The translations under genes were made by a program, and so were the position numbers. This document shows positions 36,582-54,651 of a DNA stretch of 55,864 nucleotides, in pieces. The stretch is from an uncultured Rikenellaceae bacterium (GTDB lineage Bacteria; Bacteroidota; Bacteroidia; Bacteroidales; UBA932), in NCBI GenBank assembly GCA_937906485.1, contig CALCYB010000083.1, forward strand, positions 1 to 55,864, in the 5' to 3' direction. The notes beneath the pieces are model-generated. The model was not told the DNA's origin. It made no database searches and saw only the letters and a list, made by a program, of their open reading frames with translations. Every line of letters starts with the position of its first letter. The stretch's first letter is position 1.

Positions 36582-37667
36582 CTACAACCAACTCGCATTT
36601 TCCAGGTACCATCGTACTGTACGATCGATGCCTTCTTCGAACTGCAAGGTCGGCTCCCAGCCCAATTCGCGCTGGATTTTGGTAGAATCAATGGCATAAC
36701 GCAAATCATGACCGGCCCGATCCTCCACGAAGGTGATCAACTCCTCGCTATAGCCTTGCGGATGTCCCAACTGGCGGTCCACCGTCCGGACCAATACGCG
36801 GATCAGGTCAATGTTTTTCCATTCATTAAATCCACCTACATTATAAGTTTCCCCTATAACACCACGATGAAAGATCAGATCGATGGCCCGGGCATGATCT
36901 TCCACATACAACCAGTCCCGGACATTCTCACCCTTGCCATACACCGGCAACGGAAGACGGGAACAGATGTTCTTTATAAATAAAGGTATGAGTTTCTCGG
37001 GATACTGATTCGGACCGTAGTTGTTTGAACAATTGCTGATGAGTGTCGGCATGCCGTATGTATCGTGAAACGAACGCACAAAATGATCGGATGCCGCCTT
37101 GGAAGCGGAATAAGGCGAGTGCGGCGAGTAACGGGTCGTCTCGTAGAAAAATTCCTGACCATAGGCCAGGTGATGTTCTCCGGAGGAGGCTGTCGTTGAA
37201 AAAGGTGGCTCGATTCCCTCGGGGTGGGTCAGTTCCAAAGCGCCATACACTTCATCGGTCGAAATGTGGTAAAACCGTTTGCCGGCATAGCCTTCGGGGC
37301 AGGACTCCCACACCGTTTTAGCGGCCTGCAGCAACGACAGGGTCCCCATGACGTTGGTCCGGGCAAAGGTAAACGGATCCTTGATGCTCCGGTCCACGTG
37401 ACTCTCTGCTGCCAGATGGATCACCCCATCTACACGGTATTGCCGCATCAAGGCCATAACCGCCTCGAAATCACAAATATCACCTTGCACAAAGGTATAA
37501 TTGGGGGCTGTTTCCACATCCCGCAGGTTGTCCAGGTTCCCGGCATAGGTAAGTTTGTCCAAGTTGATGATGTGGCAATCCGGGTAGTTGTTCACAGACA
37601 GACGGACCACATGGCTTCCGATAAAGCCCGCTCCACCCGTAATCAAGTACGTTTTCTTTGCTTCCAT
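36582..37667 (-). CDS. rfbB: dTDP-glucose 4,6-dehydratase
   Basis: GGAGFIGS Rossmann loop, the YSASK catalytic motif and full-length family resemblance. Confidence 0.95.
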   Translation of the reverse strand: MEAKKTYLITGGAGFIGSHVVRLSVNNYPDCHIINLDKLTYAGNLDNLRDVETAPNYTFVQGDICDFEAVMALMRQYRVDGVIHLAAESHVDRSIKDPFTFARTNVMGTLSLLQAAKTVWESCPEGYAGKRFYHISTDEVYGALELTHPEGIEPPFSTTASSGEHHLAYGQEFFYETTRYSPHSPYSASKAASDHFVRSFHDTYGMPTLISNCSNNYGPNQYPEKLIPLFIKNICSRLPLPVYGKGENVRDWLYVEDHARAIDLIFHRGVIGETYNVGGFNEWKNIDLIRVLVRTVDRQLGHPQGYSEELITFVEDRAGHDLRYAIDSTKIQRELGWEPTLQFEEGIDRTVRWYLENASWL

Positions 37668-37679
37668 GTTGCTGTTTCT

Positions 37680-38585
37680 TTAACCTTGCCGAGCCAGCCC
37701 CAACAAATATTGTCCATAAGGGTTGTTGCGCATCGGCTCGGCAATTTCCTGCAATTTCTCTGCCGAAATCCAGCCTTTCTCAAAAGCAATGGCCTCCAGG
37801 GAGGCAATCTTCAACCCTTGACGCTTCTCAATGACCTCAACAAAAGTCGATGCCTCGGCCAAAGAATCGTGGGTTCCTGTATCCAACCAGGCAAAGCCTC
37901 GTCCCAACACCTCCAGACGCAGGGCCCCTTCTTCCAGGAAAGCCTGATTGACCGATGTGATTTCCAATTCTCCTCGGGCAGAGGGTTTGATTCGTTTGGC
38001 AATCTCCACCACCCGGTTCGGATAAAAATACAACCCCGTCACAGCATAATTGGATTTGGGCTCCGCAGGTTTCTCTTCAATGCTCAATACCCTGCCCTGC
38101 TCATCCATCTGGGCCACCCCATAACGCTGGGGATTGCTCACCCAATAACCGAAGACCGTCGCCTCTCCCGCAGGACGCACGGCCTCGCCTTCCGCCACAA
38201 CCTGCGCCAATTCCACCGCACGGGCAAGCATCGGGGTGAAATGTGCTCCAAAGAAAATATTGTCGCCCAGGACCAGGCAGACCGCATCCTGTCCGATGAA
38301 CTCCTCGCCAATGATAAACGCCTGTGCCAGTCCGTCCGGAGAAGGTTGTTCGGCATAAGAAAAATTCACCCCGAAGTCTGACCCGTCACCCAACAGACGA
38401 CGGAATCCCGGCAGATCCTGTGGCGTCGAAATGATCAGAATATCACGGATCCCGGCCAACATCAGGACCGAAATCGGGTAATACACCATCGGTTTGTCAT
38501 AAATCGGCAACAGTTGCTTGCTCACGCCCTTGGTAATGGGATAAAGCCGTGTTCCCGAGCCTCCAGCTAATACTATTCCTTTCAT
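37680..38585 (-). CDS. rfbA: Glucose-1-phosphate thymidylyltransferase
   Basis: [18 protein letters not shown] start. The track ORF extends to 38690 through a terminator hairpin, so that extension is rejected. Confidence 0.95.
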
Positions 38586-38600
38586 AGCAACAAAAATACG

Positions 38601-38634
38601 AAAAAAAAATCCAGATAGCCAATGACTACCTGGA
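38601..38634 (-). terminator. Strong intrinsic terminator closing the TIR/SIR2/KaiC-like cassette
   Basis: The minus-strand RNA reads uccagguag-ucauugg-cuaucugga (9-bp stem including one G-U pair) followed by U9. It lies 16 nt upstream of the rfbA ATG. Confidence 0.75.
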
Positions 38635-38873
38635 CAGGAGGTAAATAATCTTAAAACCTGAAATCGAACCCTACTTCCATGCATCGTCAAACGTCACATT
38701 CTTCCCACTCATAATCATACCGACCATATCCTTAACAACAAACGGACGCATTGTCGCAGTCGTATCGTTATTCATCATTCAATCCCATTAAATGTCCTTA
38801 CAAACCTTAGATTTGCAGCGTGATTCACTACCCCAAGGCTTGTAAGACAAAAGTAGTAAATTCATGCAGATAA

Positions 38874-41075
38874 TTAAAGTTTAACATCTGCATTGCTTGC
38901 CACAAGATTAACCTTCTGGCGCCAATAATCTTTCATTGAACCGATTCGTTCTACCCTACCCTTGAATCCATCTTGACGAAAGGCAATGCCACAACACTTC
39001 CCCTGTCCAGGCGCTCCGTCATCATCGGATAATGGACAAAACATCTTGAGCGGGTCCTGAATGCTATATTTCAACACCTCGCTCGGAACAGGATTCTGTT
39101 CATATTGCTCCACATACACGTCTATTTCATCCGCTTTGTCCCGATTAATGCAAATCACGTTATCGGAGAGTTTACATACTTCCCGCACACAAGAAGCTTT
39201 CTTGTCACACATCAATGTCAGTTCAATATCCCGATCTGCACAAAATGTATAGAGCGCCGTCAAGAATAGCGGAGATTCTTTTAGAAACGGAAAGCTGTAA
39301 TCAATCACCTGAAGATCATCAACAATCAGATGTTTCATCTTCTTTCCGTCGGCAAATGCCACAGCCAATTGTTCATTAATCTTCATCAGCAACTCCTCCG
39401 GAGTGATGCACCCCATCCGTATATCCAGAAAATGGATATAGTGGTAACACTTTATACACGCTTTGAGTTGACAGCTCAAGGAACAAGATGAACATGACCG
39501 GATCTCCAATTGATTGGACTTGGACAAGCAGGGTGGACATCCCGCCTTTTGTATGGCAATAGCCGGGCAAAACATCTGGCGCATCATGTTATCCCGATCC
39601 TTATCCAACAACAGAATCAATGTATGTTCTCCTTTTTTAGCCAGATGGAAGGCTTTGGCCAATGTAAACATGCGTTTATAACTATTGGGATTCCCGACAA
39701 TCGCTGTAGAATCCGGATGATGATCCGTATTTCTGCCTTTCCCAAATAAGATTTTTGTCAATATTTCTTGATCATGCTGGTCTTTTTTTTCTTCCACCCC
39801 ATAGCGTTCCATATACATGGATCTTAACTTATCCAGCGGGTATGACTGCTGTTGAGGCAGATAATCTTCTCCGCTGTATTCTTCGCCTGCATTGACCTTT
39901 CGATGAATGTATTCCATATAGGATTCATTGAACATGGGCCGATGAGAAGTCAATAGTTCACTGGAACTGTACCTGCGCTTGCGAAGGATACGATGCAGAC
40001 TCGGATAAACTTCCAGAATCGAGCTCCGCTTCTTATACAGATGCCAACCGATTGTTGCCTCCTGAAAAACACTTTTCGTAATCTGCATTTCATACATCAT
40101 GTAGTTCTCTATTTCAGAGGTTCGGCTCTGCATACGAATAATCACGTCTGCTCCAATCTTTGTATCATCATAACGCTCATCAAATACCAATATTGAAACA
40201 GGAGTTGTCCGACGTAATACCGACAACATATAATCATAGGGCAATGTCTCCAATTCGGGTGATGCAATGTGAGAGAAACCATCAATCACAATACATGGAA
40301 TCTTTTGATCCGGAAGATCTGTTCTTGGATCCAAGGTAGGATCAAGGGAGCAAATATAATCCGTCAAACGCTGAACCGATGGTGCTGAATAATAATGATG
40401 AGTGCTTTCTTGATCTCCATTTGGCATTTCTACAAAATCAGCCTTAACGAATTCATCCTCAAATCCCCCCTTCAGATTGTAGGCATTGATATCACTGCTT
40501 CTTCGCTTGTACAAGATGTTGAATTGGTCTGCCCCCTCCCTCATACGTCTGAAGTGCAATGATTTTGTCCGAGGATTGTAATAAACCAGATCCTCACAAA
40601 TGTATTTGTCCAATCTTGCAGCAAGATCCGCCGGTATCATTACCCGATATTCCTTTGATACTGATTCTTCACACATCAGTCGGGATGTATCGAACAAACA
40701 ATCTGACAAGGAATGATTTATCCATTTATCCGGTTGCTCTATCCGTTCTTTTGTCATCAGATCCAACTGTTTTTCAATCAGGAAATCCAAATACAGATCC
40801 GTCAGTTCGCTTCTGTTCTTGTCAATAGAATAGAATTGTGGTTTACCAATCTGAGTGCGATCTTCGCGCTGGTTAAGCGTAACAATGGATTTTGTCAACC
40901 CCTGCATCAACTGCAGTGACATCAAGGTTTTGTTGCAGCCCTGCGTCCCATATACCGCGATAATCATACCCTGGTTGACGGTCTTTGTCAAAACATCTTT
41001 TGTCACTTGGAAACCGCCATAAAATAACTCATCCAAACCAAAGATGCCTGTTGATAGCTTTTGAATGACACTCAT
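38874..41075 (-). CDS. Two-domain KaiC/RecA-superfamily ATPase (733 aa)
   Basis: N-terminal KLSTGIFGLDELFYGGF is the KaiC/RadA-type signature. Walker A is GTQGCNKT, Walker B is IPCIVIDGF, followed by ADVIIRMQ...EMQITKS. A second RecA-like half has a degenerate P-loop (VGNPNSYKR) and Walker B (HLIVDD). ATG 41075 is preferred over the track start at 41174, which overlaps the SIR2 gene by 77 nt. Confidence 0.8.
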   Translation of the reverse strand: MSVIQKLSTGIFGLDELFYGGFQVTKDVLTKTVNQGMIIAVYGTQGCNKTLMSLQLMQGLTKSIVTLNQREDRTQIGKPQFYSIDKNRSELTDLYLDFLIEKQLDLMTKERIEQPDKWINHSLSDCLFDTSRLMCEESVSKEYRVMIPADLAARLDKYICEDLVYYNPRTKSLHFRRMREGADQFNILYKRRSSDINAYNLKGGFEDEFVKADFVEMPNGDQESTHHYYSAPSVQRLTDYICSLDPTLDPRTDLPDQKIPCIVIDGFSHIASPELETLPYDYMLSVLRRTTPVSILVFDERYDDTKIGADVIIRMQSRTSEIENYMMYEMQITKSVFQEATIGWHLYKKRSSILEVYPSLHRILRKRRYSSSELLTSHRPMFNESYMEYIHRKVNAGEEYSGEDYLPQQQSYPLDKLRSMYMERYGVEEKKDQHDQEILTKILFGKGRNTDHHPDSTAIVGNPNSYKRMFTLAKAFHLAKKGEHTLILLLDKDRDNMMRQMFCPAIAIQKAGCPPCLSKSNQLEIRSCSSCSLSCQLKACIKCYHYIHFLDIRMGCITPEELLMKINEQLAVAFADGKKMKHLIVDDLQVIDYSFPFLKESPLFLTALYTFCADRDIELTLMCDKKASCVREVCKLSDNVICINRDKADEIDVYVEQYEQNPVPSEVLKYSIQDPLKMFCPLSDDDGAPGQGKCCGIAFRQDGFKGRVERIGSMKDYWRQKVNLVASNADVKL

Positions 41076-41097
41076 ATCTGATGCGATTATTAAAATT

Positions 41098-42246
41098 TCA
41101 AAATCTGCACTTCTCCACTTGAATACGGCTGCACAAATCCACAAGATCTCTGTACAATGCCCCGTACCCCTCATCGGACACGATCGGGGTTAACCCCAAC
41201 GACTGGTAGTAATCCATTTTTATCTCGTTGACCAACTTCCAATCTTTTATATACGATTGTTCTTTGTACGCCGTGTCGGCTTTCAAGTAATACAAGCGGT
41301 CCTTGTTGCCGGACAATCGGACATAATGCAACATCCGTTGCGTCGTTTCATCACTGACTGAAGAACCTGCAAATATACAGGTATAATGATTCAGAAAATG
41401 AATCTGTGTAGCGATCTGCCAGGAGTAGAATTGTGTAGACAACTCATTGAATTCATCCATCGATAACACAATCCGACTTTCTGACAATCTGGCCACTTCT
41501 ACAGGAGATGGAATATAACCATGCACATGATAGACAAATAGGTTCTCATCGGTCTTAGAATCATCATACGAATTCCCAAAAATATCAGAAATGTGCAGTT
41601 CACTCCGACAACGTTCTATACTGGCCAACTCCTCTTGTGTAAAATAATGACTACGGTCCCTCCAAAGAATAGATATGGCCCTGGTCAAAAAATTATCATA
41701 ATTATAGGTCACGATTGCCTTAATCTGTGGACAAAGTATGACCATTCGGGCCAACTGATACAAGGTATAAAACGGCAAACCTTCCGTTGTGGACTGCCTT
41801 TTTAAATTTGAAAGGGTATAGTGCTTTTCAAATTCTTCCTTTAACAGAAATTGGTTACATTCCTTATAGATATAATACTGTAACGTAGGTATGTACTTAT
41901 CCCCCAATACAGACTTTATTATAAATGCCTTGCTTGTATAGGATATTGCAGAATGTGAGGATTTATAAATATGGAACCAACTTTCTAACTCTTCTACCGT
42001 TTTGAAACCACTGGGGCGTCCTTTAAAAATGGCATTGACCGACCACACGGTTTTTGCATCCGCATTGTGCTTCATGCCCATCTGATGGATTACCCGATCC
42101 ATCAAATAATTCAATATATCATCCCACAACAAGTGAACACCTGGGCTACAATTGATACCGGCTCCCACAAACAGAATCATCTGTTTATGAGCTTCCAGAT
42201 CTTTCTTGAAAGACAAAAGGTTCTGATTTGAAAATAAAGCACACAT
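41098..42246 (-). CDS. Stand-alone SIR2-like (SIR2_2-type) protein, predicted NAD+-consuming effector (382 aa)
   Basis: All SIR2_2 landmarks are present in order: ILFVGAGIN (the GAG NAD-binding loop), VTYNYDNF (TTNYD motif), VYHVHGY (catalytic His), IVLSMDEF and IFAGSSVSDE. The track start at 42294 is TTG and overlaps a promoter box. ATG 42246 is preferred. Confidence 0.85.
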   Translation of the reverse strand: MCALFSNQNLLSFKKDLEAHKQMILFVGAGINCSPGVHLLWDDILNYLMDRVIHQMGMKHNADAKTVWSVNAIFKGRPSGFKTVEELESWFHIYKSSHSAISYTSKAFIIKSVLGDKYIPTLQYYIYKECNQFLLKEEFEKHYTLSNLKRQSTTEGLPFYTLYQLARMVILCPQIKAIVTYNYDNFLTRAISILWRDRSHYFTQEELASIERCRSELHISDIFGNSYDDSKTDENLFVYHVHGYIPSPVEVARLSESRIVLSMDEFNELSTQFYSWQIATQIHFLNHYTCIFAGSSVSDETTQRMLHYVRLSGNKDRLYYLKADTAYKEQSYIKDWKLVNEIKMDYYQSLGLTPIVSDEGYGALYRDLVDLCSRIQVEKCRF

Positions 42247-42291
42247 ATAGCATCCAAACCTTCCGCAATTTACATAAAAAAAATTCAGCTG

Positions 42292-42299
42292 CAAAATTA
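42292..42299 (-). promoter_or_regulatory. Candidate internal promoter (TTTG-17 nt-TAATTTTG) ahead of the SIR2 gene
   Basis: On the minus strand, TAATTTTG is the reverse complement of 42292..42299 and TTTG is the reverse complement of 42317..42320. The -7 box lies 45 nt upstream of ATG 42246. Confidence 0.35.
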
Positions 42300-42346
42300 A
42301 ATCATTGATATTTCGCCAAAGAATCAGAAAGCATCCCGCTGCCTTA

Positions 42347-42454
42347 TTAACGAGGGAGGACTTTCCTCAAAGCCTCAGTGATATGCTGAGTTTCCACCTG
42401 CCTATCTTCATATCCAATAATTTTGAACAACTGTAATAATCTTATTCTTTTCAT
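42347..42454 (-). CDS. Micro-ORF, 35 codons (MKRIRLLQLFKIIGYEDRQVETQHITEALRKVLPR); coding status uncertain
   Basis: Below the ORF-track length cut-off. Its ATG (42454..42452) overlaps the TGA (42453..42451) of the TIR-STAND gene as ATGA, which is the classic translational-coupling geometry. Confidence 0.25.
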   Translation of the reverse strand: MKRIRLLQLFKIIGYEDRQVETQHITEALRKVLPR

Positions 42455-44931
42455 CCATCAAGACCACGGCGCACAAAATCCTGGAACTGACTTACCACAC
42501 TGGAGGTAAAGCGTTTCTTCACTTCGTTTTCCACCAACCGCCGAGCTTCCCAGACTTGACCGGCGTGCACCAGCAGACGGCATTTTGCCAACAGATACTG
42601 CATTTTGCGACGTATATCTGAATTCTGATCAAACTGTTGATCAATTTTGGTAACAAAATCCTCTATTTCAGGGTATTGTTCCATATGGTTCAGCACCTCG
42701 AGTTTTGCCAGATAAGGATAGATCTTACGGGGATACTTCTGCAGGGTCTCATCCGCCATACGGAGTGCCTTCTCAGGCTCATCCTCTACATAGTAGTAAT
42801 AATCGATCATCGCAGTCCGGTACATCTCGTCGGCTTTGGGATTGAGGTTTCCTTTCAAGTCTTCCAGCAATCGTTTCAGCCGGTCAGCGGCTGCTTTTCC
42901 TTCCAGCTTCAACACGCACCGGAAATAGCTCTGGATCGCATAGGGATTATTCCGGTCTGCTTGATAAAACTCTTCGGCCAAATCATGGGCTGCCTCATAC
43001 GCTTCTTTGTTCAAATAGACTTGAATCAGTTCTCTTTTAGCCCGAATGTGTTCCGGAAACTGCTCCAATGCCCGGTTCAAACAACGTTCCGCATCCTCCA
43101 TCTGCCCACGCAAGCGATGATAAAAGCCTCGTAGAAAATCTTTCTCCGCCCCATTGATGTAATCCACTTCCATCAAAAAACGGTCATCCCCTTTTCTGGC
43201 CAATGACAGACACAACCAGTAGCGAATTTCCCGAATGATACGCTCATCCATGTACGAGACATTCTTCAAGACACGGTCTGCCAAAGCAATCACATCATCA
43301 TACTGACGCTGATAATTGTACAATTCTCGCATAGCATTCACAAAATGCGACGGAATCAGGAACTCTTCCGGAACTCCCCTACCTTGCTTAAGTGACTCTT
43401 TTAATGAAATCACATAATCAGAAGTGTCTCGCTCCATATCCTGTGCATAATCTTTACTCTGCTGGTTGACGTATTGAATTAGATTATTACGGTAAGTGTC
43501 CTTCAATTTATAGGTCGAACGTTGGATATGATCCCGAATCACATCACTCAACCGAAGGTTATCCTTGTTGGTCCCTATCCATTCAATCATCATAGATGAA
43601 GACAGGTCCTCCACAATATCCATCGCTGCATCAAAATCTTCCCCTAAAATCTTCTCCAACATTAGAAAACTGATGAACTCATATTCCGAAAGAATCACAA
43701 GTAGATTGATTGCCAATACATTACCATCATACTTTCTCACAAGATGAGAAACTTTCTCTGCATTATACTCAACAATTTCATGCAAGTGATTCCTTACGTA
43801 TTGAAGGCCTTCATGATTTAGTAACTGAACTGCATAATGAACCTGTTCGGGATAGCCGTTCAACACATTTGTGATCATACCCAAATCTTCCTTAGACATG
43901 GATAATCCATTGATTTTCAAAAGCGTTGTATATAACCCTATCCGTTCGGTACGTTCAAGTTCCGGAATATTGATACAGAACAATGATTTCTGTTGACTCA
44001 TGTACCTGGTCTTCACTTTTGACAAACTGATTACACATAGTAAGATACACCCCCTTCTGGAGAGATTTTCAATAATCCGAAGAAACCATCCTGGCAGACT
44101 TCCAGTTTTGGAAACAATTGCATGGTTATCTTCAACAAACAAAATCTCCCCGACATCTTCCAACTCCTGAATTAATTCCGTAGCCAAGGCAATCTTCTCG
44201 GGAAGCGTTTTTGCCAACAACGAAGACATCCTGTCACTTGACATCGACGAATAGCCCAATCCATAGATCCGAATGATAAAATCCTCAATAGAACACATTT
44301 GATCCAAAGTAATGGACAACGGGAAATATTCCGGCTTGATGGTTGAGGAGTTAGTCAAAGCATGGCGTAAGAACTTGCGCCTACCAATGGAGTTCAAACC
44401 ACTGACAATGATGCAACCGGGCAGGCCCAATTCAATATCATAGATTCTTGACTCAAATTCCTTCAACTGCTCAGTCCTCCCCACAAACAATCGGTCCAAC
44501 TCCTTTTTCTTTGGAAACAGATTCCACGCAGCAAGACGTTGGCGCTGACGAATCAGAGCTGCCACCTTAGTCGGTTTGGAGATATAACGCAGGTTATACT
44601 CTTTTCTCATCCACTCCGGTATGCGACCGTCAGTATGTCTGATCTGTTTATCAATGATTACCGGGAAAAAACATTTGATCTTCCCATTGGCAATATACTC
44701 TTCAGCCTTCAATATTTCTTTCTCCACCCAGGTACTGCCCAATGATTCTTCCGAAATGAAGAAAACAAAAATACTGGTATTGTCCAGTCCTTGATAAATC
44801 TCATCCAACGTCCGGCATCCTTCCTCAAAAGTCCATGCATCGTACACGACACGCTGCTTGCCCAATATCCGGGCAACCATCTCCACGTATCCTTTCTGCT
44901 TGCTGCTATGCGACAAAAATACTCTTCCCAT
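42451..44931 (-). CDS. TIR domain - STAND (AAA16/NB-ARC-like) NTPase - TPR repeat protein (826 aa)
   Basis: N-terminal TIR: VFLSHSSKQK...IFVFFISEESLGSTWVEKEI (the SxWxxxE catalytic-Glu motif, E72). NTPase: FVGRTEQLKEF...IIVSGLNSIGRRKFLRHAL (P-loop), EILFVEDN (Walker B) and NGYPEQVHYA (GxP-like). C-terminal ~300 aa: TPR-like helical repeats (RGQMEDAERCLNRALEQFPEHIRAKRELIQVYL...). Confidence 0.85.
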   Translation of the reverse strand: MGRVFLSHSSKQKGYVEMVARILGKQRVVYDAWTFEEGCRTLDEIYQGLDNTSIFVFFISEESLGSTWVEKEILKAEEYIANGKIKCFFPVIIDKQIRHTDGRIPEWMRKEYNLRYISKPTKVAALIRQRQRLAAWNLFPKKKELDRLFVGRTEQLKEFESRIYDIELGLPGCIIVSGLNSIGRRKFLRHALTNSSTIKPEYFPLSITLDQMCSIEDFIIRIYGLGYSSMSSDRMSSLLAKTLPEKIALATELIQELEDVGEILFVEDNHAIVSKTGSLPGWFLRIIENLSRRGCILLCVISLSKVKTRYMSQQKSLFCINIPELERTERIGLYTTLLKINGLSMSKEDLGMITNVLNGYPEQVHYAVQLLNHEGLQYVRNHLHEIVEYNAEKVSHLVRKYDGNVLAINLLVILSEYEFISFLMLEKILGEDFDAAMDIVEDLSSSMMIEWIGTNKDNLRLSDVIRDHIQRSTYKLKDTYRNNLIQYVNQQSKDYAQDMERDTSDYVISLKESLKQGRGVPEEFLIPSHFVNAMRELYNYQRQYDDVIALADRVLKNVSYMDERIIREIRYWLCLSLARKGDDRFLMEVDYINGAEKDFLRGFYHRLRGQMEDAERCLNRALEQFPEHIRAKRELIQVYLNKEAYEAAHDLAEEFYQADRNNPYAIQSYFRCVLKLEGKAAADRLKRLLEDLKGNLNPKADEMYRTAMIDYYYYVEDEPEKALRMADETLQKYPRKIYPYLAKLEVLNHMEQYPEIEDFVTKIDQQFDQNSDIRRKMQYLLAKCRLLVHAGQVWEARRLVENEVKKRFTSSVVSQFQDFVRRGLDG

Positions 44932-44961
44932 GATAAAGTCTTCTAAAAAATATAATGCTGT

Positions 44962-44969
44962 GCAAATCT
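44962..44969 (-). promoter_or_regulatory. -7 box TAGATTTG, candidate promoter of the cassette
   Basis: The reverse complement of caaatcta matches TAnnTTTG. It lies 30 nt upstream of ATG 44931 and just downstream of the preceding terminator. Confidence 0.4.
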
Positions 44970-44971
44970 AA

Positions 44972-45015
44972 TAAAAAAAGAAATTCGGGCCAGTACCTTA
45001 ACCGTACTGACCCGA
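44972..45015 (-). terminator. Intrinsic terminator after wbuC, ending the polysaccharide operon
   Basis: The minus-strand RNA reads uucgggucaguac-gguuaag-guacuggcccgaa (13-bp stem with one G-U pair) followed by a U-rich tract (uuucuuuuuuu). Confidence 0.75.
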
Positions 45016-45019
45016 AATC

Positions 45020-45421
45020 TCACTTCAGAATATCACACTCCTGAATCGGAATATATGGACCATCCTTCATCTCAAGGATCACAGTCCCGCTCTCAAGAGC
45101 TCTCAACGTGTGCCACTGACCTGCGGGAATATTCAGCGCAAAGACAGGACCTCCCGCTGCTAGTTCATACGTCGCAGAGCAAATACGCTCTAGTTCATCA
45201 TAAAATTCCTCTATGACTCGGCCACGAAGCACCACGACCGTTTCTGAAGTCTTCTGATGGCGATGAATCGGAATCACCGACCCCGGCTCAATGGCATTCA
45301 ACATCCGCTGAGAGGTATCCGCATCCGAATTCCTCAGATCCAGATTCATCCGCAAACGAGGCGACTCCTTCGCCTGAGAAGAGAGGTTATCAAGAAGTTG
45401 ATGGTCGATCTTGATGGTCAC
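45020..45421 (-). CDS. wbuC: WbuC-family cupin-fold protein
   Basis: IDHQLLDNLSSQAKESPRLRMNLDLRNS...LNAIEPGSVIPIHRH matches the WbuC pattern. The track start at 45460 is TTG and overlaps the upstream gene. GTG 45421 lies 9 nt after the upstream stop. The start is uncertain. Confidence 0.75.
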   Translation of the reverse strand: MTIKIDHQLLDNLSSQAKESPRLRMNLDLRNSDADTSQRMLNAIEPGSVIPIHRHQKTSETVVVLRGRVIEEFYDELERICSATYELAAGGPVFALNIPAGQWHTLRALESGTVILEMKDGPYIPIQECDILK

Positions 45422-45432
45422 GATAAACAAGA

Positions 45433-46707
45433 TTATGCGATTATCGCTTGTTTTATACAATCTACAATGTAATGAATGTCTTCATCAGATACACAAGGGC
45501 CAGACGGCAGACACAAGCCAACCTCAAAGAGATCTTCAGATACACCATTCACATAAGCGGGACATTTTGCATATACAGGCTGCTTGTGCATCGGTTTCCA
45601 CAATGGACGCACCTCTATGCCACAAGCATCCAAGGCAACCCGCATTGCCTCAACATTGGCATTCGGCTCACAATCTGTATGCATACTACCTCCGCCATGC
45701 AGTACGCCTGCAGCACCGCCTACTGCACCTTGAACAGCTGAACTATACGCAGATTCTTGTCCCTTTACTCTTAAATCAGGATCCAACGTCACAGTATTCA
45801 ACCAATAATTGCTATCATAGTCAGAAGAGGGATTCTCATGCAAAACAATTCCTGGAATCTCTTTCAACAACTCGCGATACAGGTCAGTGGTATGCTTGTG
45901 ATGTGCCACATGTTCTGCCACAACCGTCATTTGTCCTCGTCCAATTCCTGCGCAGATGTTGGACATCCGATAATTGTAACCAATCTTGTCATGCTGATAG
46001 TACGGATATGCCTCACGTGCTTGAGTAGCATAAAACATGATTTCCTGCTTGGCAGTCGCATCGGGACAAATCAAAGCACCTCCTCCGGAAGTCGTAATCA
46101 TCTTGTTTCCATTAAACGAAAGCACCCCATATTTGCCAAAAGTTCCGCACATCCGGCCTTTATACCGACTTCCGAACGCTTCGGCAGCATCTTCAATTAC
46201 GGGAATTTCATATTTGGCTGCAATAGAAAGAATTTCATCCAACTTGGCTGGCATTCCGTAAAGATATACCGGGACAATTGCCTTCGGTTTCTTTCCGGTC
46301 TTCGCCATCCGATCCACAATCGCCTCCTCCAATAGTGCGGGATCCATATTCCAAGTATCCCGTTCAGAATCAATGAACACCGGAGTTGCACCCAAATAGG
46401 TAATCGGATGGGATGAAGCACAGAATGTGAATGATTGTACCAATACCTCATCACCAGGGCCTACACCACAAGCAACTAAGGCTAAATGAACGGCCGCTGT
46501 TCCAGCAGAAAGGGCAACCACCTTGGCATCTCCTGTCGCAGGAGCTCCCGCTACTGCTGGACTATTGACATAGGTTTCCAAATCGGACTCAAATCCATTC
46601 ACATTCGGTCCAAGAGGCACTACCCAATTTGTATCAAAAGCCTCTTGTATGAAACGCTGCTCGCTTCCCGACATGTGAGCAAGACATAAATAAATACGTT
46701 TTTGCAT
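45433..46707 (-). CDS. DegT/DnrJ/EryC1/StrS-family PLP-dependent sugar aminotransferase
   Basis: HMSGSEQRFIQEAFDTNWV..., FTFCASSHP, VIEDAAEAFGS and the SFNGNKMITTSGGG PLP-lysine motif. Confidence 0.9.
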   Translation of the reverse strand: MQKRIYLCLAHMSGSEQRFIQEAFDTNWVVPLGPNVNGFESDLETYVNSPAVAGAPATGDAKVVALSAGTAAVHLALVACGVGPGDEVLVQSFTFCASSHPITYLGATPVFIDSERDTWNMDPALLEEAIVDRMAKTGKKPKAIVPVYLYGMPAKLDEILSIAAKYEIPVIEDAAEAFGSRYKGRMCGTFGKYGVLSFNGNKMITTSGGGALICPDATAKQEIMFYATQAREAYPYYQHDKIGYNYRMSNICAGIGRGQMTVVAEHVAHHKHTTDLYRELLKEIPGIVLHENPSSDYDSNYWLNTVTLDPDLRVKGQESAYSSAVQGAVGGAAGVLHGGGSMHTDCEPNANVEAMRVALDACGIEVRPLWKPMHKQPVYAKCPAYVNGVSEDLFEVGLCLPSGPCVSDEDIHYIVDCIKQAIIA

Positions 46708-46720
46708 GATAACAATACTA

Positions 46721-47815
46721 TTAGTACAATATAGAGTTACAACATCCGAACCTTATTCTCCACAGATTTATATCGTTTATATCTGAAAACTCTGAGGATT
46801 TATCTCTGAAGCCCATTTGCATATATCCGTGTTTAATAAACCCATAGTGGCGTAGTTTTTTTTCTGTCCTTTTGTTATTGGTTACGGTTAAGACACGATA
46901 ACAATCTTTTGAGAAGGTCTCTAAAGACAATAGATTTATATCTGCCTCACTGAGATTGTCATCAATTGTAGCCCACTCACACACTGTTCCATTTATCATT
47001 CTGCAGTTAGTTATATCAAGCCGTCTACGCTCCTTAGTCAGAAAGAACCCAATAGGCCTATTACCTCTATCGTATATAGCATAAAATTTTTGGATATCCT
47101 CCCTATGACCTGACAAATTATGGTCTAAACACCACTGCAACCATTTTGTATCATGATATTCAGCATATTTGTGACCATCATTCAGACACATCTTTCCAGC
47201 CCATTCTGGAACATCATGCAATTGATTGATGGTATAATATCTCTTTAAGTATTTTAATCTTATTTTATTTGGAACATCAAGTGTCTTAATTAGGGCATTC
47301 GTCAAAGTTTTCAACACATTTAATGGAAGCCCAACAAAACCACGACATGCAAAGGCTGCTTCAGAATTAATTACTTTGACATATTCAGGAAAATCAAATA
47401 TGGTACAACTCTTTTCTTTTTTTCTCATTATTGACAGAAATGAGGGTGATAATAATGAGAATAGATAAAAAGGATATTCATCATTATACAAGCAATAATC
47501 TCTCATACGTGAGCCAATTCCTCTACCCCTATACTCTTTACAAACCTCTATACTACCCATTGACTGGGAAATAACGAAAGAATTATCCACTTTGATTTTT
47601 GTGCCAAATAATAGCATTCTTGCTACAACAATATCTCCATCCAAAGTTAATAGTAACGTTGTTTTATGGTTGTCACATTTAGTTGGACATTGTAGAATTG
47701 TTGCTCGTAAATCTTCATTTATAAATGAATTCAAACTATACTTATCTTTATATCTTAGATAATTTTTGTTAACGAATTCATCGTGTGTAATATTAATTAT
47801 TCTAATATCAGCCAT
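46721..47815 (-). CDS. GNAT-like acyltransferase (two-lobed, FemAB-like size)
   Basis: Acetyl-CoA loop motif EYRGRGIGSRM. The ATG is at 47815 (the track start is TTG). Otherwise unrecognised. Confidence 0.55.
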   Translation of the reverse strand: MADIRIINITHDEFVNKNYLRYKDKYSLNSFINEDLRATILQCPTKCDNHKTTLLLTLDGDIVVARMLLFGTKIKVDNSFVISQSMGSIEVCKEYRGRGIGSRMRDYCLYNDEYPFYLFSLLSPSFLSIMRKKEKSCTIFDFPEYVKVINSEAAFACRGFVGLPLNVLKTLTNALIKTLDVPNKIRLKYLKRYYTINQLHDVPEWAGKMCLNDGHKYAEYHDTKWLQWCLDHNLSGHREDIQKFYAIYDRGNRPIGFFLTKERRRLDITNCRMINGTVCEWATIDDNLSEADINLLSLETFSKDCYRVLTVTNNKRTEKKLRHYGFIKHGYMQMGFRDKSSEFSDINDINLWRIRFGCCNSILY

Positions 47816-47829
47816 TAGTTGCAAGTCAT

Positions 47830-49038
47830 TTATTTGGCAAAATCTCCCAAGTAAGCGTAGGGATCAGTCAACATACCATCACGAATAATAGTCGCACCTT
47901 CAATTACAGAATTTTTAGCAGAAAAGTCCGTAAGCATGGGTTTAAAAACATGCTCAATAAGCATATCACCAAAATACTCGCTTGAATCCAACGCCAAGGC
48001 ATTCGGGCAAGTATCTACTGCCATTACACTTATATTATTATCTGAAGTGAAAGCGCCCTCTTCTCGCCCTGTTATAGGATTATAGTCGAAATACGGATTA
48101 GCATGAGTAGAGGATCGAACAGTGGACTTGATACTACCCATAATATCACACGTAACATCACCAATCATACGGATACGTAAATCCTCTCTGCGCAAATCAT
48201 CAACATCTAAGTATACAGGGGCGTCTGGAGCCCAAAAGTGTGCACAAATCAACACATCAGTAACTTTAGCAAACTTAAAGAAGTCACTTTCATAGTCATG
48301 AACATTTGCTGAAAAATCAGACCATGTAAACTTCTTCCGATCCTTATGTTTAACCAAACGATCAACATCTGCCACACAATAAGTAAGCTCATTAACAGTT
48401 TCTACTGATAGATACTCCTGCTCATCTATTTTATTTGCACCAATTTGGTTCAGGACAAATTGTGCACCTTGCGAAACGCGTCCCGCACCTGTCACCAAGA
48501 GTTTAACCCTAGGGAGCTCTATTTTATTTAAGGAATCCAGGAGTTGCTTAATAGTGAATCTAAGGTCCGGTTGTGGTAACTCATATAGCTTATATTTCAA
48601 ACCATAACCACGGAGTGTATAATACACTCCTACTACACCTGCCCACCATCCGAATGCACAAACCCGCTTACCTCCCTGATCTACGAGATATTCATAGTCT
48701 GAAAATGTTATTCTTTTTTCAATCATAGCTTTTATAAGTGGCCGATTGTATTCTTGCATTTTAGCTATATGACCAAAGAAGAAATAATGCTTTTGTGGTA
48801 AGATTGATTCAATGGCCGCTTCTTTAATACCAAATAAAATATCGCAGTCATTTAAATCTTTAACTACTTGTATTCCGAATGCCCGATACTCATCGTCTGA
48901 ATATGCACGAACATCACTTGATTCAACAACGATTTCTACCCCCATATAACTATCCATTAACATCCTTGCCTGTGAAGGGGTTAATGCGACTCTATTATCA
49001 ATAGGAGTCTTTGTTTCTCTAATTAATCCAATTTTCAT
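47830..49038 (-). CDS. AlaDH/PNT-family dehydrogenase, saccharopine/opine dehydrogenase-like
   Basis: MKIGLIRETKTPIDNRVALTPSQARMLM...VVESSDVRAYSDDEYRAFGIQVV resembles the saccharopine dehydrogenase (L-lysine-forming)/alanine dehydrogenase N-terminus. A Rossmann loop VTGAGRVSQGA is present. ATG 49038 is preferred. Confidence 0.65.
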   Translation of the reverse strand: MKIGLIRETKTPIDNRVALTPSQARMLMDSYMGVEIVVESSDVRAYSDDEYRAFGIQVVKDLNDCDILFGIKEAAIESILPQKHYFFFGHIAKMQEYNRPLIKAMIEKRITFSDYEYLVDQGGKRVCAFGWWAGVVGVYYTLRGYGLKYKLYELPQPDLRFTIKQLLDSLNKIELPRVKLLVTGAGRVSQGAQFVLNQIGANKIDEQEYLSVETVNELTYCVADVDRLVKHKDRKKFTWSDFSANVHDYESDFFKFAKVTDVLICAHFWAPDAPVYLDVDDLRREDLRIRMIGDVTCDIMGSIKSTVRSSTHANPYFDYNPITGREEGAFTSDNNISVMAVDTCPNALALDSSEYFGDMLIEHVFKPMLTDFSAKNSVIEGATIIRDGMLTDPYAYLGDFAK

Positions 49039-49046
49039 AGTTACAA

Positions 49047-50297
49047 TTATTTTGACAATGAATCTATAATTTCTTGTGACGTTAATTTGCAAAATACAGA
49101 ACACGTCTCAACATTAGTTTCTACCTTCAATGTTTCGTTTACCATATTAACATCATCAATAATAGATGCTAAATCTTCAGCATAGAAGGTACACATTGCA
49201 ATTTTATTAGGTTTATTTCCAACAACATACCCAGGATACAGATTCGGAACATATGTTACAACTTCTTTAATGTTTTTCACCAACTCTTCGCCAATAACAC
49301 GATTAACAACATCTCCTTCATTACTTCTAAAGTAGATATTATATGTTACAGCATATCCTCTATCATTGGTGATTTCTGTATTCACCTTATAGTCATCACC
49401 GACAGCATACTTAATCATGCATGATAAGTAATCAATGCCCTCGCTAGCTCTTTGATAATCAAAAGAGTGACCGCCGCCTAATCGAAATCCTGTTTCAAAC
49501 ACATAGAACCTACCATTCCGGTAGAAAAATGAAATATTTGCTACCCCACATTTCATTCCCAAACTCATCAGCATCGTTCTAACATTCTCGTGTACTTGAT
49601 CTATATACTCCGTTTCATATTTAGATGGAAATGTCCAGGCTTTCTGCATTGTTTCATAACCCTTTTGCTTTGTCAACATGGTTGTATCGCAAGTTTCAAT
49701 TAGTATAGCATCTGTCTCTGAAATATAATACGAGCAGTCGAACTTAACACCATCTCCGATAAAATCCTCCACAACGACATTTTTTGATGGAGACATCGAA
49801 TATGCATATGCGAGAAATTCTTTGTACTCAACTTCATTATATGCTACATTAATACCGATACTTCCACCCCTATCTGTTGGCTTGATAATAACTGGGAACT
49901 TTATATCCGCAGAATTAGGATTATATTCGTTAACTATGGGCACACCAAATTGCTTACATAGTTTCTTGAACTTATTTTTGTCCCTTGTTATCTCCAACTG
50001 TTCGCTATTAATATAGCACGGCAAATTAAGTCTCTTACACATTTCTATCATACTCTCAACCCTAAACTCGCTAAAACCCGCCATTATTCCATCTATACCA
50101 ACTTCTCGACACTTCTGCTCTAAGACATCATAATCAACCCAACTGATATTCCATGCTTCATTTGCAACCAATTTAGCTGGAGTAATATTTTTATCGGTAT
50201 AATAATCTGTAGTTATCACATAGTAACCCATTGATTGAGCGATCTTAATTACATCTACCTCCGCATTTGAGGATCCAATAATTAATATTTTTTTCAT
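49047..50297 (-). CDS. ATP-grasp domain protein
   Basis: KKILIIGSSNAEVDVIKIAQSMGY pre-ATP-grasp region, FPVIIKPTDRGGSIGI and FETGFRLGGG. Confidence 0.8.
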   Translation of the reverse strand: MKKILIIGSSNAEVDVIKIAQSMGYYVITTDYYTDKNITPAKLVANEAWNISWVDYDVLEQKCREVGIDGIMAGFSEFRVESMIEMCKRLNLPCYINSEQLEITRDKNKFKKLCKQFGVPIVNEYNPNSADIKFPVIIKPTDRGGSIGINVAYNEVEYKEFLAYAYSMSPSKNVVVEDFIGDGVKFDCSYYISETDAILIETCDTTMLTKQKGYETMQKAWTFPSKYETEYIDQVHENVRTMLMSLGMKCGVANISFFYRNGRFYVFETGFRLGGGHSFDYQRASEGIDYLSCMIKYAVGDDYKVNTEITNDRGYAVTYNIYFRSNEGDVVNRVIGEELVKNIKEVVTYVPNLYPGYVVGNKPNKIAMCTFYAEDLASIIDDVNMVNETLKVETNVETCSVFCKLTSQEIIDSLSK

Positions 50298-50318
50298 TTC
50301 TGTTTTCCCCCTATGTAT

Positions 50319-51392: not shown

Positions 51393-51395
51393 AAC

Positions 51396-52442: not shown

Positions 52443-52474
52443 TATAATATTAATTATTCGTCACAAGGATAACA

Positions 52475-53149: not shown

Positions 53150-53420
53150 GACTTAATACTTATTATTTCTTCTATTCAAGATATTCATTTTTAAAAGTTC
53201 ATTAACTGTCCGGACTATCTCAGTACCTGCTCCATGTCGTATCCCCCTCTATTGAATGACGCAATCCATCCAATGATTCAGCACATCATCCCCAATAAAC
53301 ACACCCGTGTCTATAATTAATTCCGAAACCTACAAACAAAATCATCTGCTGATTTGGGCTTTGTTTGAAATGACAAATAATCAGGACTAGGAAATAGCGA
53401 GCGGAGAAAATGATGATATA

Positions 53421-54638: not shown

Positions 54639-54651
54639 TCAAATTCTAAAC

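What the first reader, a model, noticed from the sequence alone, without database searches (positions are those of the whole stretch)
38874..44931. TIR-STAND-TPR / SIR2 / double KaiC-like ATPase cassette: candidate undescribed NAD+-targeting anti-phage system
Three co-directional genes, plus a coupled micro-ORF, sit between two strong intrinsic terminators. The first (826 aa) is TIR - STAND NTPase - TPR with the TIR SxWxxxE catalytic-Glu motif intact. The second (382 aa) is a SIR2_2-type protein with the GAG loop, TTNYD-like motif and HG histidine intact. The third (733 aa) is a two-domain KaiC/RecA-like ATPase starting 22 nt after the SIR2 stop. TIR and SIR2 are the two hallmark domains of Thoeris, and SIR2 paired with an oligomeric ATPase recalls SIR2-HerA, but this architecture matches neither. 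The TIR is fused to a STAND/TPR sensor instead of being a free ThsB. The SIR2 has no SLOG or other ligand-sensor domain, unlike ThsA. The partner ATPase is RecA/KaiC-fold, not FtsK/HerA-fold. A KaiC-like ATPase partnered with a SIR2 NADase is not a combination I can place in any named system. Working model (inference): the STAND-TPR module senses a phage protein, and the TIR either depletes NAD+ or makes a nucleotide signal. SIR2 would then be scaffolded or gated by the KaiC-like ring as a second NADase stage, giving abortive infection.
Basis: partly seen in the sequence, partly recalled or inferred. Interest (0 to 1): 0.92.

Follow-up and report, generated by a model that had tools for sequence, protein, structure and literature searches.

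The report
SIR2 plus KaiC-like pair beside TIR-NLR
The three genes are real but form two separate modules: a known one-gene anti-phage protein (TIR-NLR), and beside it a rare, apparently undescribed pair of a SIR2 NAD-cleaving enzyme and a double KaiC-like ring protein that is probably a new phage-defence system.

Summary
The three minus-strand genes and their domains are confirmed. The interpretation as one three-gene system is not.

- **Gene 1** (42451..44931) matches PADLOC's TIR-NLR model end to end (E 8e-152). TIR-NLR is a validated single-gene defence system (Rousset 2022). Its relatives occur alone, without SIR2 or KaiC-like neighbours.
- **Genes 2 and 3** (SIR2 41098..42246; double KaiC-like 38874..41075) are a tightly linked pair. 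They recur together in about 20 independent contexts, in Bacteroidales and in five distant bacterial groups. TIR-NLR is never nearby, except in a 96%-identical twin strain.
- The pair has its own Bacteroides-type promoter in the 204-nt spacer.
- The SIR2 keeps its catalytic motifs. Its model resembles only defence NADases (DSR2, ThsA, SIR2/HerA).
- The partner folds as a two-domain KaiC but has deviant P-loops, an invariant GWHxYKxR loop and a Cys cluster.
- In a sister clade the same KaiC-like protein pairs with a 5–8-helix membrane protein instead of SIR2. This is an effector swap, typical of defence systems.
- Neither protein hits PADLOC, NCBIfam or any paper found.

Best reading: a new SIR2-plus-ring-NTPase abortive-infection system, analogous to SIR2–HerA but not homologous to it. 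Both modules recur inside Bacteroidales capsule loci. The micro-ORF is not conserved.

The parts
42451..44931 (-). TIR-NLR gene (826 aa): N-terminal TIR, central STAND-type NTPase, C-terminal TPR array. A separate, known single-gene defence system.
   Evidence: PADLOC TIR-NLR PDLC03015, E 7.9e-152, full length. Pfam TIR_2 7e-15 plus TPR families. 168 relatives with E <= 1e-20; nearly all of the 120 listed are about 820 aa and come from several phyla, including Klebsiella and Enterobacter.
44716..44718 (-). Codon for TIR catalytic Glu E72 (motif S66-x-W68-x3-E72)
   Evidence: E72 invariant in 113/113 aligned relatives.
44377..44400 (-). NTPase P-loop of TIR-NLR, G178-LNSI-G183-R184-R185, with Arg in place of the canonical Lys
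   Evidence: G178 and G183 are invariant, R184 is found in 110/113 relatives, and the Walker B D268 is invariant. This is a family-wide feature, not a defect of this copy.
42292..42320 (-). Bacteroides-type promoter consensus (TTTG, 17 nt, TAATTTTG) in the 204-nt spacer, 46 nt upstream of the SIR2 ATG
   Evidence: The pattern TTTG-N16-18-TAnnTTTG occurs 4 times in the window against 0.81 expected, and this copy is on the correct strand. That it functions as a promoter is inferred.
42347..42454 (-). 35-aa micro-ORF overlapping the TIR-NLR stop codon (ATGA); probably not a gene
   Evidence: tblastn and blastn find it only in the twin locus L029. Nothing comparable lies downstream of the TIR-NLR genes examined in L035, L037, L039 and L040.
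41098..42246 (-). SIR2_2-family protein (382 aa, single domain); predicted NADase effector
   Evidence: Pfam SIR2_2 4e-13. Invariant GAG, YNxD and HG motifs. AF2 pLDDT 88.1, pTM 0.89. All 50 top Foldseek hits come from DSR2, ThsA or SIR2/HerA defence-complex entries. No PADLOC or NCBIfam hit.
38874..41075 (-). Double KaiC-like (RecA-superfamily) protein, 733 aa; predicted ring-forming sensor or scaffold partner of the SIR2
   Evidence: Foldseek: all 50 top hits are full-length KaiC. 78 homologous clusters. 228 representatives at E <= 1e-30 among 1.84 billion. A SIR2 gene lies immediately upstream in 17 of the first 28 loci.
40926..40949 (-). Domain 1 deviant P-loop G43-TQ-G46-CN-K49-T50 (GxxGxNKT)
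   Evidence: G43 and K49 are invariant. The Gly before Lys is lost across the Bacteroidales clade. The distant-phyla clade keeps the canonical GxPGTGKTT.
40026..40049 (-). Family signature loop G343-W-H-x-Y-K-x-R350
   Evidence: G343-W-H and K348 are present in every sequence examined, and the Y347 and R350 positions are nearly invariant. This holds in all three clades (SIR2-linked, TM-linked, distant phyla).
39672..39695 (-). Domain 2 P-loop-like motif G461-N-P-N-S-Y-K467-R468
   Evidence: Invariant in the A1 alignment. This motif is not canonical in any clade.
39408..39569 (-). Cys cluster inserted in domain 2 (C503-P, C540-xx-C543, C556); possible zinc-binding module
   Evidence: C503, P504, C540 and C543 are invariant; C556 is conserved in at least 90% of the 25 sequences. 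AF2 confidence is low for residues 511-534. Zinc binding is inferred.
44984..45016 (-). Terminator-like hairpin ending the upstream polysaccharide gene (DUF6016 cupin)
   Evidence: 13-bp stem with 7 GC pairs and a T-rich tail. A TAGATTTG -7-type box follows at 44970..44963.
38609..38635 (-). Terminator-like hairpin after the KaiC-like gene, before rmlA
   Evidence: 12-bp stem followed by a run of T (sequence).

Best explanation
The region holds two independent defence modules that lie side by side inside a surface-polysaccharide locus.

**Module A** is a member of the known single-gene TIR-NLR family. By analogy with other STAND/NLR defence proteins, its TPR and STAND part senses infection and its TIR domain then consumes or converts NAD+.

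**Module B** is a two-gene operon, SIR2 plus a double KaiC-like protein, which I read as an undescribed abortive-infection system. The steps below are all inferred.
1. The KaiC-like protein forms a two-tier ring, as KaiC does.
2. It acts as a nucleotide-bound sensor or scaffold rather than a fast motor. In this clade the P-loops are deviant and the catalytic Glu position is Asn or Asp.
3. It detects a phage cue through its invariant aromatic and basic loop (GWHxYKxR) and its Cys cluster.
4. It then releases or assembles the bound SIR2, which hydrolyses NAD+ and stops the infected cell.

In a sister clade the same sensor is wired to a polytopic membrane protein instead, which would kill by membrane damage.

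Shown: gene linkage, fold, motif conservation, effector swap, independence from TIR-NLR. Inferred: oligomeric state, physical complex, trigger, NADase activity, phage protection.
For: **Linkage.** A SIR2 gene lies directly upstream of the KaiC-like gene, overlapping it or up to 22 nt away.
- This holds in L001-L011 and L022-L028, in L030-L034 and in L041.
- The loci cover Bacteroidales plus Cloacimonadales, Sedimentisphaerales, Phycisphaerae, Hydrogenedentota and Opitutales.
- The two families are similar in size, 78 and 95 clusters.

**Independence from TIR-NLR.** Shown from both sides. The spacer carries its own promoter consensus.

**Effector.** The catalytic motifs are invariant. Structural neighbours are exclusively anti-phage SIR2 NADases.

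**Effector swap.** In 9 of 10 Bacteroidales loci (L012-L021; the partner ORF was not found in L017) there is no SIR2. A conserved 340-440 aa protein with 5-8 predicted TM helices follows the KaiC-like gene instead. L020 was assessed only for absence of SIR2, not for the TM partner.

**Fold.** Two-domain KaiC.

**Defence or mobile neighbours.**
- TIR-NLR (window).
- A ThsA/LmuA-like SIR2 (L008).
- Type I RM and an AbiH fusion (L025).
- PD-Lambda-2_B-like and Gp49 (L026).
- Abi_2 (L003).
- CAP12-PCTIR TIR and RecT (L006).
- AAA_21 plus RloB (L033).
- An integrase (L032).

**Rarity.** The family is rare and patchy: 228 representatives at E <= 1e-30 among 1.84e9.
Against: - There is no experiment.
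- Many neighbours are housekeeping or polysaccharide genes, so defence-island enrichment is only modest and was not quantified against a background.
- Both P-loops deviate from GxxxxGK[ST] and the catalytic Glu is replaced, so ATPase activity is doubtful.
- No SIR2/KaiC-like complex was modelled.
- DefenseFinder and post-2023 PADLOC models could not be run, and the paper library lacks most subscription journals, so prior description cannot be excluded.
- The only apparent gene fusion (P0169) is a deletion chimera, not a Rosetta-stone fusion.
Confidence: 0.6

Rival explanations
1. TIR-NLR, SIR2 and the KaiC-like protein form one three-gene system in which the TIR makes a signal or depletes NAD+, and the KaiC-gated SIR2 is a second stage (Thoeris-like relay).
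For: The three genes are co-directional, adjacent and bracketed by two terminator-like hairpins. TIR plus SIR2 is the Thoeris pairing. The arrangement is kept in a second strain (L029).
Against: L029 is 96.5% identical DNA, so it is not independent. Among about 25 independent KaiC-like contexts and 4 independent TIR-NLR contexts the families never co-occur. Gene 1 is a full-length member of a system validated as a single gene. The SIR2 has no SLOG, STALD or other ligand-binding domain and no ThsA hit. A promoter consensus sits between genes 1 and 2.
Confidence: 0.04
2. The SIR2/KaiC-like pair is not an anti-phage system. It would instead be a toxin-antitoxin-like addiction or competition module, or an NAD-dependent protein-modifying (deacylase or ADP-ribosyltransferase) regulator linked to surface-polysaccharide loci, with the KaiC-like protein as substrate or timer.
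For: The pair recurs inside polysaccharide loci: the window, L001, L030/31, L033/34 and L041. Several distant-phylum loci have only housekeeping neighbours. KaiC proteins are autokinase and phosphatase switches, and some SIR2 proteins modify proteins.
Against: The SIR2 model matches only defence NADases, with no deacetylase sirtuin in the top 50. Replacement of SIR2 by a polytopic membrane protein with the same KaiC-like partner is hard to reconcile with a specific enzymatic regulator. The pair also occurs in prophage, integrase and RM/Abi contexts unrelated to polysaccharide synthesis. TIR-NLR, an established defence gene, shows the same polysaccharide-locus preference. That suggests these loci are simply a landing site for defence genes.
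Confidence: 0.15
3. Same defence role but a different mechanism. The KaiC-like ring is an active ATP-driven translocase on phage DNA or RNA, as proposed for HerA in SIR2-HerA, and SIR2 activity is coupled to ATP hydrolysis rather than to a nucleotide-bound switch.
For: Distant-phylum members keep a canonical GxPGTGKTT Walker A, hhhhDG Walker B and a Glu after strand 2 in domain 1. K49, D265, K467 and D586-D587 are conserved in the Bacteroidales clade. RecA-superfamily rings commonly thread nucleic acid. The invariant W/H/Y/K/R loop could be a pore loop.
Against: In the clade that contains the window, the Gly preceding the P-loop Lys is lost, the Ser/Thr after it varies (T/H/M/I), and the catalytic Glu position is Asn or Asp. 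Domain 2 never has a canonical P-loop. In the TM-linked clade the Lys itself is often Arg or Glu.
Confidence: 0.2

Closest known systems
TIR-NLR single-gene defence system (Rousset et al. 2022; PADLOC 'TIR-NLR', DefenseFinder 'Rst_TIR-NLR' from my own knowledge)
   Same: Gene 1 matches the family model over its whole length. It shares the invariant TIR Glu and the family-specific GxxxxGR[RK] P-loop. It is about 33% identical over 98% of its length to Klebsiella and Enterobacter members. Relatives stand alone.
   Different: This is a Bacteroidales copy embedded in a polysaccharide locus, not in a P4-like satellite hotspot. No functional test exists for this clade.
SIR2-HerA (Gao et al. 2020; structures 8wld and 8yhx)
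   Same: A two-gene operon of a single-domain SIR2 NADase next to a ring-forming ASCE P-loop NTPase. The SIR2 model aligns with the SIR2 of the SIR2/HerA complex. The expected logic is the same: the ring scaffolds and gates the NADase.
   Different: The partner has a two-domain KaiC/RecA fold, not an FtsK/HerA fold. There are no PADLOC HerA or SIR2 model hits. The P-loops are deviant. The partner carries a Cys cluster and the GWHxYKxR loop. An alternative effector is a polytopic membrane protein, not the DUF4297 nuclease.
Thoeris (ThsB TIR plus ThsA SIR2-SLOG)
   Same: TIR and SIR2 genes are adjacent in this window. The SIR2 fold resembles the ThsA SIR2 domain.
   Different: The SIR2 has no SLOG/STALD domain (382 aa, one domain; no ThsA hit). 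The TIR is part of an 826-aa STAND protein. The two genes do not co-occur elsewhere.
KaiC circadian clock ATPase and KaiC-like proteins
   Same: The overall two-domain RecA-like architecture. The N-terminal TGIxGLDxLxxGG motif hits Pfam PF06745.
   Different: 9-13% identity. Non-canonical P-loops in both domains. Catalytic Glu pair replaced by [ND]-K. Large insertions. No kaiA or kaiB neighbours in any locus listed.
DSR2 / DSR1 / Avs5 (SIR2 fused to a large sensor)
   Same: Defence-type SIR2 NADase. DSR2 is the best structural match.
   Different: In those systems the sensor is fused in one polypeptide. Here the SIR2 is a separate 382-aa protein and the putative sensor is a separate KaiC-like protein.

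Membership tests
TIR-NLR (PADLOC PDLC03015 / Rousset 2022) | Full-length match to the family profile (TIR, NTPase, C-terminal repeats; about 820 aa) | tested here: met
   E 7.9e-152, residues 2-807 against profile positions 2-805 of 824.
TIR-NLR (PADLOC PDLC03015 / Rousset 2022) | Intact TIR catalytic glutamate | tested here: met
   E72 in S-x-W-x3-E, invariant in 113/113 relatives.
TIR-NLR (PADLOC PDLC03015 / Rousset 2022) | Functions as a single gene, with no conserved partner | tested here: met
   Relatives in L035-L040 have unrelated neighbours. The identical protein P0317 lies in three different gene contexts.
TIR-NLR (PADLOC PDLC03015 / Rousset 2022) | Protects against phage | not testable with these tools
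   Shown for an E. coli P4-satellite copy (PMC9122126), not for this clade.
Thoeris | ThsA effector carries a SLOG/STALD (or Macro) ligand-sensing domain | tested here: not met
   The SIR2 is a 382-aa single domain and hits no PADLOC ThsA model.
Thoeris | TIR gene and effector gene co-occur as an operon across genomes | tested here: not met
   No TIR-NLR in about 25 independent SIR2/KaiC-like contexts, and no SIR2 in 4 independent TIR-NLR contexts.
SIR2-HerA | Partner is a HerA (FtsK-HerA superfamily) ATPase | tested here: not met
   All 50 top Foldseek hits are KaiC. No PADLOC HerA hit.
SIR2-HerA | Single-domain SIR2 with catalytic Asn/Asp and His, encoded next to the ATPase | tested here: met
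   N182, D184 and H242 are invariant. The genes are 22 nt apart, and overlap in other loci.
SIR2-HerA | SIR2 and ATPase form a supramolecular complex with NADase activity | not testable with these tools
   No multimer prediction or biochemistry is available here.
KaiC family (PF06745; clock-type) | Two tandem RecA-like domains | tested here: met
   Foldseek alignments span about 700 columns of full-length KaiC.
KaiC family (PF06745; clock-type) | Canonical Walker A GxxxxGK[ST] and catalytic Glu pair in both domains | tested here: not met
   Domain 1 has GTQGCNKT and YSIDK. Domain 2 has GNPNSYKR and LLDK. The Pfam score of 23.1 is below the 26.6 cut-off.
KaiC family (PF06745; clock-type) | Genomic association with kaiB or kaiA | tested here: not met
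   No such Pfam families appear among neighbours in the listed loci.
Candidate new SIR2 + double KaiC-like system (this report) | KaiC-like protein with invariant GWHxYKxR, adjacent to an effector gene (SIR2 upstream, or a 5-8-TM protein downstream) | tested here: met

The most novel reading that the evidence does not exclude
The double KaiC-like protein is a new class of ring-shaped phage sensor that gates interchangeable killers (SIR2 NADase or a polytopic membrane protein). In gut Bacteroidales this module and TIR-NLR are deliberately embedded in capsular-polysaccharide operons, many of which are phase-variable (my own knowledge). Capsule type, which determines phage adsorption, and intracellular immunity would then be switched on together.
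Probability: 0.15. Interest if true: 0.8.

Novelty: new variant of a known kind. Interest (0 to 1): 0.55.

Why it matters
If the pair protects against phage, it adds a third kind of ring NTPase (KaiC/RecA-type, beside HerA and STAND) that controls a SIR2 NADase. It would also give a natural case in which one sensor drives two unrelated effectors, which is useful for working out what the sensor recognises.

The family is centred on gut Bacteroidales, where few defence systems have been tested. Two unrelated defence modules repeatedly sit inside capsule loci. This raises a testable idea: surface variation and intracellular immunity may be genetically coupled in these abundant human-gut bacteria.

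The result also corrects an over-reading. Adjacency of TIR and SIR2 genes here is a defence-island effect, not a Thoeris-like relay.

Tried and rejected
1. **Three-gene unit.** Rejected on co-occurrence from both sides.
2. **Micro-ORF 42347..42454 as a coupled gene.** No homologue at protein or DNA level outside the twin locus.
3. **Rosetta-stone fusion.** P0169 looked like SIR2 fused to the KaiC-like protein. It is a SIR2 truncated at LSMD and joined to the C-terminal half of a KaiC-like protein, so it is a deletion or assembly chimera. P0202 has a 358-aa N-terminal extension with no SIR2 similarity and no Pfam hit. Other long relatives are KaiC-like proteins with insertions.
4. **Sequence search of PDB with the SIR2 and with the KaiC-like profile.** No hit at E <= 1. 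Only fold comparison worked.
5. **Mobile-element carriage.** No plasmid hit. The single 'phage' hit, MT835535.1 (an UNVERIFIED record), is a glycosyltransferase-rich bacterial-looking contig carrying the same SIR2/KaiC-like pair, so it is not evidence of phage carriage.
6. **Empty-site comparison** through an exact look-up of the window's RmlA. Not on record.
7. **Conserved third gene downstream of the pair.** By inspection of the gene tables, the downstream neighbours differ between loci (LytTR, unknown proteins of 288, 132 and 150 aa, or none).
8. **The 35-aa ORF between the KaiC-like stop and the terminator.** Found only in the twin locus.
9. **Literature.** Five keyword searches combining SIR2, KaiC, KaiC-like, defence, abortive infection and Bacteroides returned nothing relevant.
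Full report
**1. What is in the sequence**

Three long minus-strand ORFs occupy 38874..44931.
- Gene 1 is 42451..44931 (826 aa).
- Gene 3 is 38874..41075 (733 aa), starting 22 nt after the gene 2 stop.

Terminator-like hairpins lie just upstream of gene 1 (45016..44984) and downstream of gene 3 (38635..38609). The flanks are surface-polysaccharide genes on the same strand. Upstream are a group-1 glycosyltransferase, Bac_transf, two ATP-grasp enzymes, DegT and a DUF6016 cupin. Downstream are rmlA and rmlB.

**2. Gene 1 is a member of a known single-gene system**

- It matches PADLOC's TIR-NLR model from end to end (E 7.9e-152; residues 2-807 against 2-805 of 824). Pfam sees TIR_2 plus TPR repeats.
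- TIR-NLR was validated as a stand-alone anti-phage gene carried by P4-like satellites (PMC9122126).
- The family is broad: 168 relatives with E <= 1e-20. Nearly all of the 120 listed are about 820 aa, from Bacteroidota to Klebsiella, Enterobacter and Arcobacter.
- In an alignment of 113 members the TIR glutamate E72 is invariant. The NTPase P-loop reads GxxxxG-R-[RK], with Arg in place of the usual Lys in 110/113. The Walker B Asp D268 is invariant. The odd P-loop in the window is therefore a family trait.
- Relatives at 74%, 57% and 51% identity have no SIR2 or KaiC-like neighbour (L035-L040).

**3. Genes 2 and 3 are a conserved pair that does not need gene 1**

- The KaiC-like protein has 78 homologous clusters, all unnamed. 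An exhaustive profile search finds 228 representatives at E <= 1e-30 among 1.84 billion. The family is rare.
- A SIR2 gene homologous to gene 2 lies immediately upstream of the KaiC-like gene, often overlapping it.
  - This holds in metagenome contexts (L001-L006, L030-L034).
  - It also holds in 12 of 22 species-representative genomes (L007-L011 and L022-L028).
  - These include Cloacimonadales, Sedimentisphaerales, Phycisphaerae, Hydrogenedentota and Opitutales.
- TIR-NLR appears in none of these loci. The only exception is L029, which is 96.5% identical DNA to the window, hence the same species.
- The dedicated SIR2 family has 95 clusters, and many share contigs with KaiC-like clusters.
- The 204-nt spacer between genes 1 and 2 holds a match to the Bacteroides promoter consensus, TTTG-N17-TAATTTTG, at 42320..42292. 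It is on the right strand and 46 nt before the SIR2 ATG. There are only 4 such matches in the window against 0.81 expected. A TAGATTTG box also precedes gene 1. Two transcription units are therefore likely (inference).

**4. Nature of the two proteins**

*SIR2.* G28-A-G30, N32, Y181-N182-x-D184 and H242-G243 are invariant in 26 relatives. The AlphaFold model is confident (pLDDT 88.1, pTM 0.89) and is a single domain. All 50 best Foldseek matches come from anti-phage SIR2 entries: DSR2, ThsA and SIR2/HerA. It hits no PADLOC SIR2, ThsA or Dsr model and no NCBIfam model, so it is a divergent subfamily.

*KaiC-like protein.* Sequence evidence is weak (Pfam KaiC 5e-5, below the cut-off, N-terminus only). 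The model (pLDDT 72.9, pTM 0.69) aligns over about 700 columns with full-length KaiC in all 50 top hits (best E 1e-16).

The motif analysis shows the following.
- Domain 1 has GxxGx[N/H]K[T/H/M] instead of GxxxxGK[ST].
- The position of KaiC's catalytic Glu pair is [N/D]-K.
- Walker B Asp (D265) is kept.
- Domain 2 has the invariant motifs GNPNSxKR, F-D-K and hhhhD586-D587.
- A Cys cluster (C503-P, C540xxC543, C556) is inserted in domain 2.
- The loop G343-W-H-x-Y-K-x-R350 is essentially invariant in every clade.
- Members from distant phyla keep a canonical GxPGTGKTT and a Glu after strand 2. The ancestor was thus a real ATPase, and the Bacteroidales lineage has drifted towards a nucleotide-binding, poorly hydrolysing form (inference).

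**5. Effector swap**

Ten Bacteroidales loci (L012-L021) have the KaiC-like gene but no SIR2. In eight of these loci (L012-L016, L018, L019, L021) a mutually homologous 340-440 aa protein with 5-8 predicted transmembrane helices (a truncated copy in L016) starts at or just after the KaiC-like stop. L017 and L020 were not compared. That partner has no credible Pfam or PADLOC assignment. One conserved NTPase partnered with alternative cell-killing effectors is the pattern seen in many defence systems (established knowledge: CBASS, Thoeris, Lamassu, HerA systems). It is the strongest indirect argument here for a defence role.

**6. Genomic context**

Known defence or mobile neighbours occur in several loci.
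- TIR-NLR in the window.
- A ThsA/LmuA-like SIR2 directly after the pair in L008.
- A type I R-M methylase and specificity subunit on one side and an AbiH-FGE fusion on the other in L025.
- A PD-Lambda-2_B-like protein and Gp49 in L026.
- Abi_2 in L003, CAP12-PCTIR TIR and RecT in L006, AAA_21 plus RloB in L033, and an integrase in L032.

Other loci, especially in distant phyla, show only housekeeping neighbours. Enrichment is plausible but was not quantified.

**7. Mechanism proposed**

This is my inference, by analogy with SIR2-HerA. The KaiC-like protein forms a two-tier hexamer that holds SIR2 inactive. A phage-derived cue is sensed through the invariant aromatic and basic loop and/or the Cys cluster. 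The cue changes the ring and activates NAD+ hydrolysis, which aborts the infection. In the sister clade the same ring activates a membrane effector. I give the defence reading about 0.6. A variant in which the ring is an active translocase gets about 0.2. A non-defence role gets about 0.15. The translocase variant is a sub-case of the defence reading, so these four values are not meant to sum to 1.

**8. Comparison and novelty**

- Gene 1 is an already known kind.
- The pair works like SIR2-HerA but fails the defining HerA criterion.
- It fails Thoeris membership, because it has no SLOG domain and shows no co-occurrence with a TIR gene.
- It is KaiC-like in fold only.
- Neither protein is in PADLOC 2.0 or NCBIfam 20, and five literature searches found nothing.

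I classify it as a new variant of a known kind: a SIR2 effector plus an oligomeric P-loop NTPase. The caveat is that DefenseFinder and newer model sets could not be run.

**9. Side observation worth following**

Both modules, independently, sit inside Bacteroidales polysaccharide loci.
- The SIR2/KaiC-like pair does so in the window, L001, L030/31, L033/34 and L041.
- The TM-linked form does so in L019/L021.
- TIR-NLR alone does so in L035-L039, where an identical protein sits behind three different sets of glycosyltransferase genes.

No paper on this was found. These loci may be recombination hotspots that collect defence genes. Alternatively, the defence genes may be co-expressed with particular capsules.

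**10. Verdict**

Interest 0.55.

Noticed in passing
window 36582..55713; L001, L030, L031, L033, L034, L035-L039, L041, L019, L021: Two unrelated defence modules (TIR-NLR alone; SIR2 plus KaiC-like alone) repeatedly lie inside or at the distal end of Bacteroidales capsular or surface polysaccharide gene clusters. The identical TIR-NLR protein P0317 sits behind three different glycosyltransferase sets. No paper on this was found.
   Followed up: partly
L012-L021, e.g. L012:10038-11351, L013:10101-11213, L019:10044-11087: A conserved family of 340-440 aa proteins with 5-8 predicted TM helices and no Pfam or PADLOC assignment. It always lies directly downstream of a KaiC-like gene that lacks a SIR2 partner.
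   Followed up: partly
window 44377..44400 and 113 relatives (P0311-P0430): The TIR-NLR family's NTPase P-loop has Arg instead of the canonical Lys (GxxxxG-R-[RK]) in 110 of 113 members. This is unusual for a STAND NTPase and may bear on whether it hydrolyses NTP.
   Followed up: partly
L008:3175-4542: A second, different SIR2 protein (455 aa; PADLOC ThsA 1.6e-15, LmuA 8e-15) lies immediately downstream of the SIR2/KaiC-like pair.
   Followed up: no
L025:3933-6620 and L025:10299-12263: The pair is sandwiched between a type I R-M methylase and specificity genes on one side and a 654-aa AbiH plus FGE-sulfatase-domain fusion on the other. That fusion architecture is not one I recognise.
   Followed up: no
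L041 (MT835535.1, 'UNVERIFIED: Bacteriophage sp.', 37.9 kb): This GenBank 'phage' record carries the SIR2/KaiC-like pair amid glycosyltransferase-like and O-antigen-polymerase-like ORFs. It looks like a bacterial polysaccharide locus rather than a phage genome.
   Followed up: partly
window 38668..38775 (-): A 35-aa ORF ([34 protein letters not shown]) lies between the KaiC-like stop and the terminator. It is found only in the twin locus and may be a remnant of a disrupted gene.
   Followed up: partly
P0202 (1077 aa), P0169 (645 aa): P0202 is a KaiC-like homologue with a 358-aa N-terminal extension of unknown nature. P0169 is an in-frame chimera of a truncated SIR2 and the C-terminal half of a KaiC-like protein.
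   Followed up: partly
L023:9517-11448 and L027:9409-11340 (both minus strand): In two Planctomycetota loci a 643-aa ORF lies convergently just after the pair. The L023 copy carries DUF6930, DUF7309 and TPR domains, and one search shows two neighbours hitting these families. It may be a lineage-specific third component.
   Followed up: no
window 47001..55000: G+C drops to 0.32-0.39, against about 0.50 in the first 23 kb. The region covers the glycosyltransferase and ATP-grasp part of the polysaccharide locus, consistent with horizontally exchanged capsule genes.
   Followed up: no
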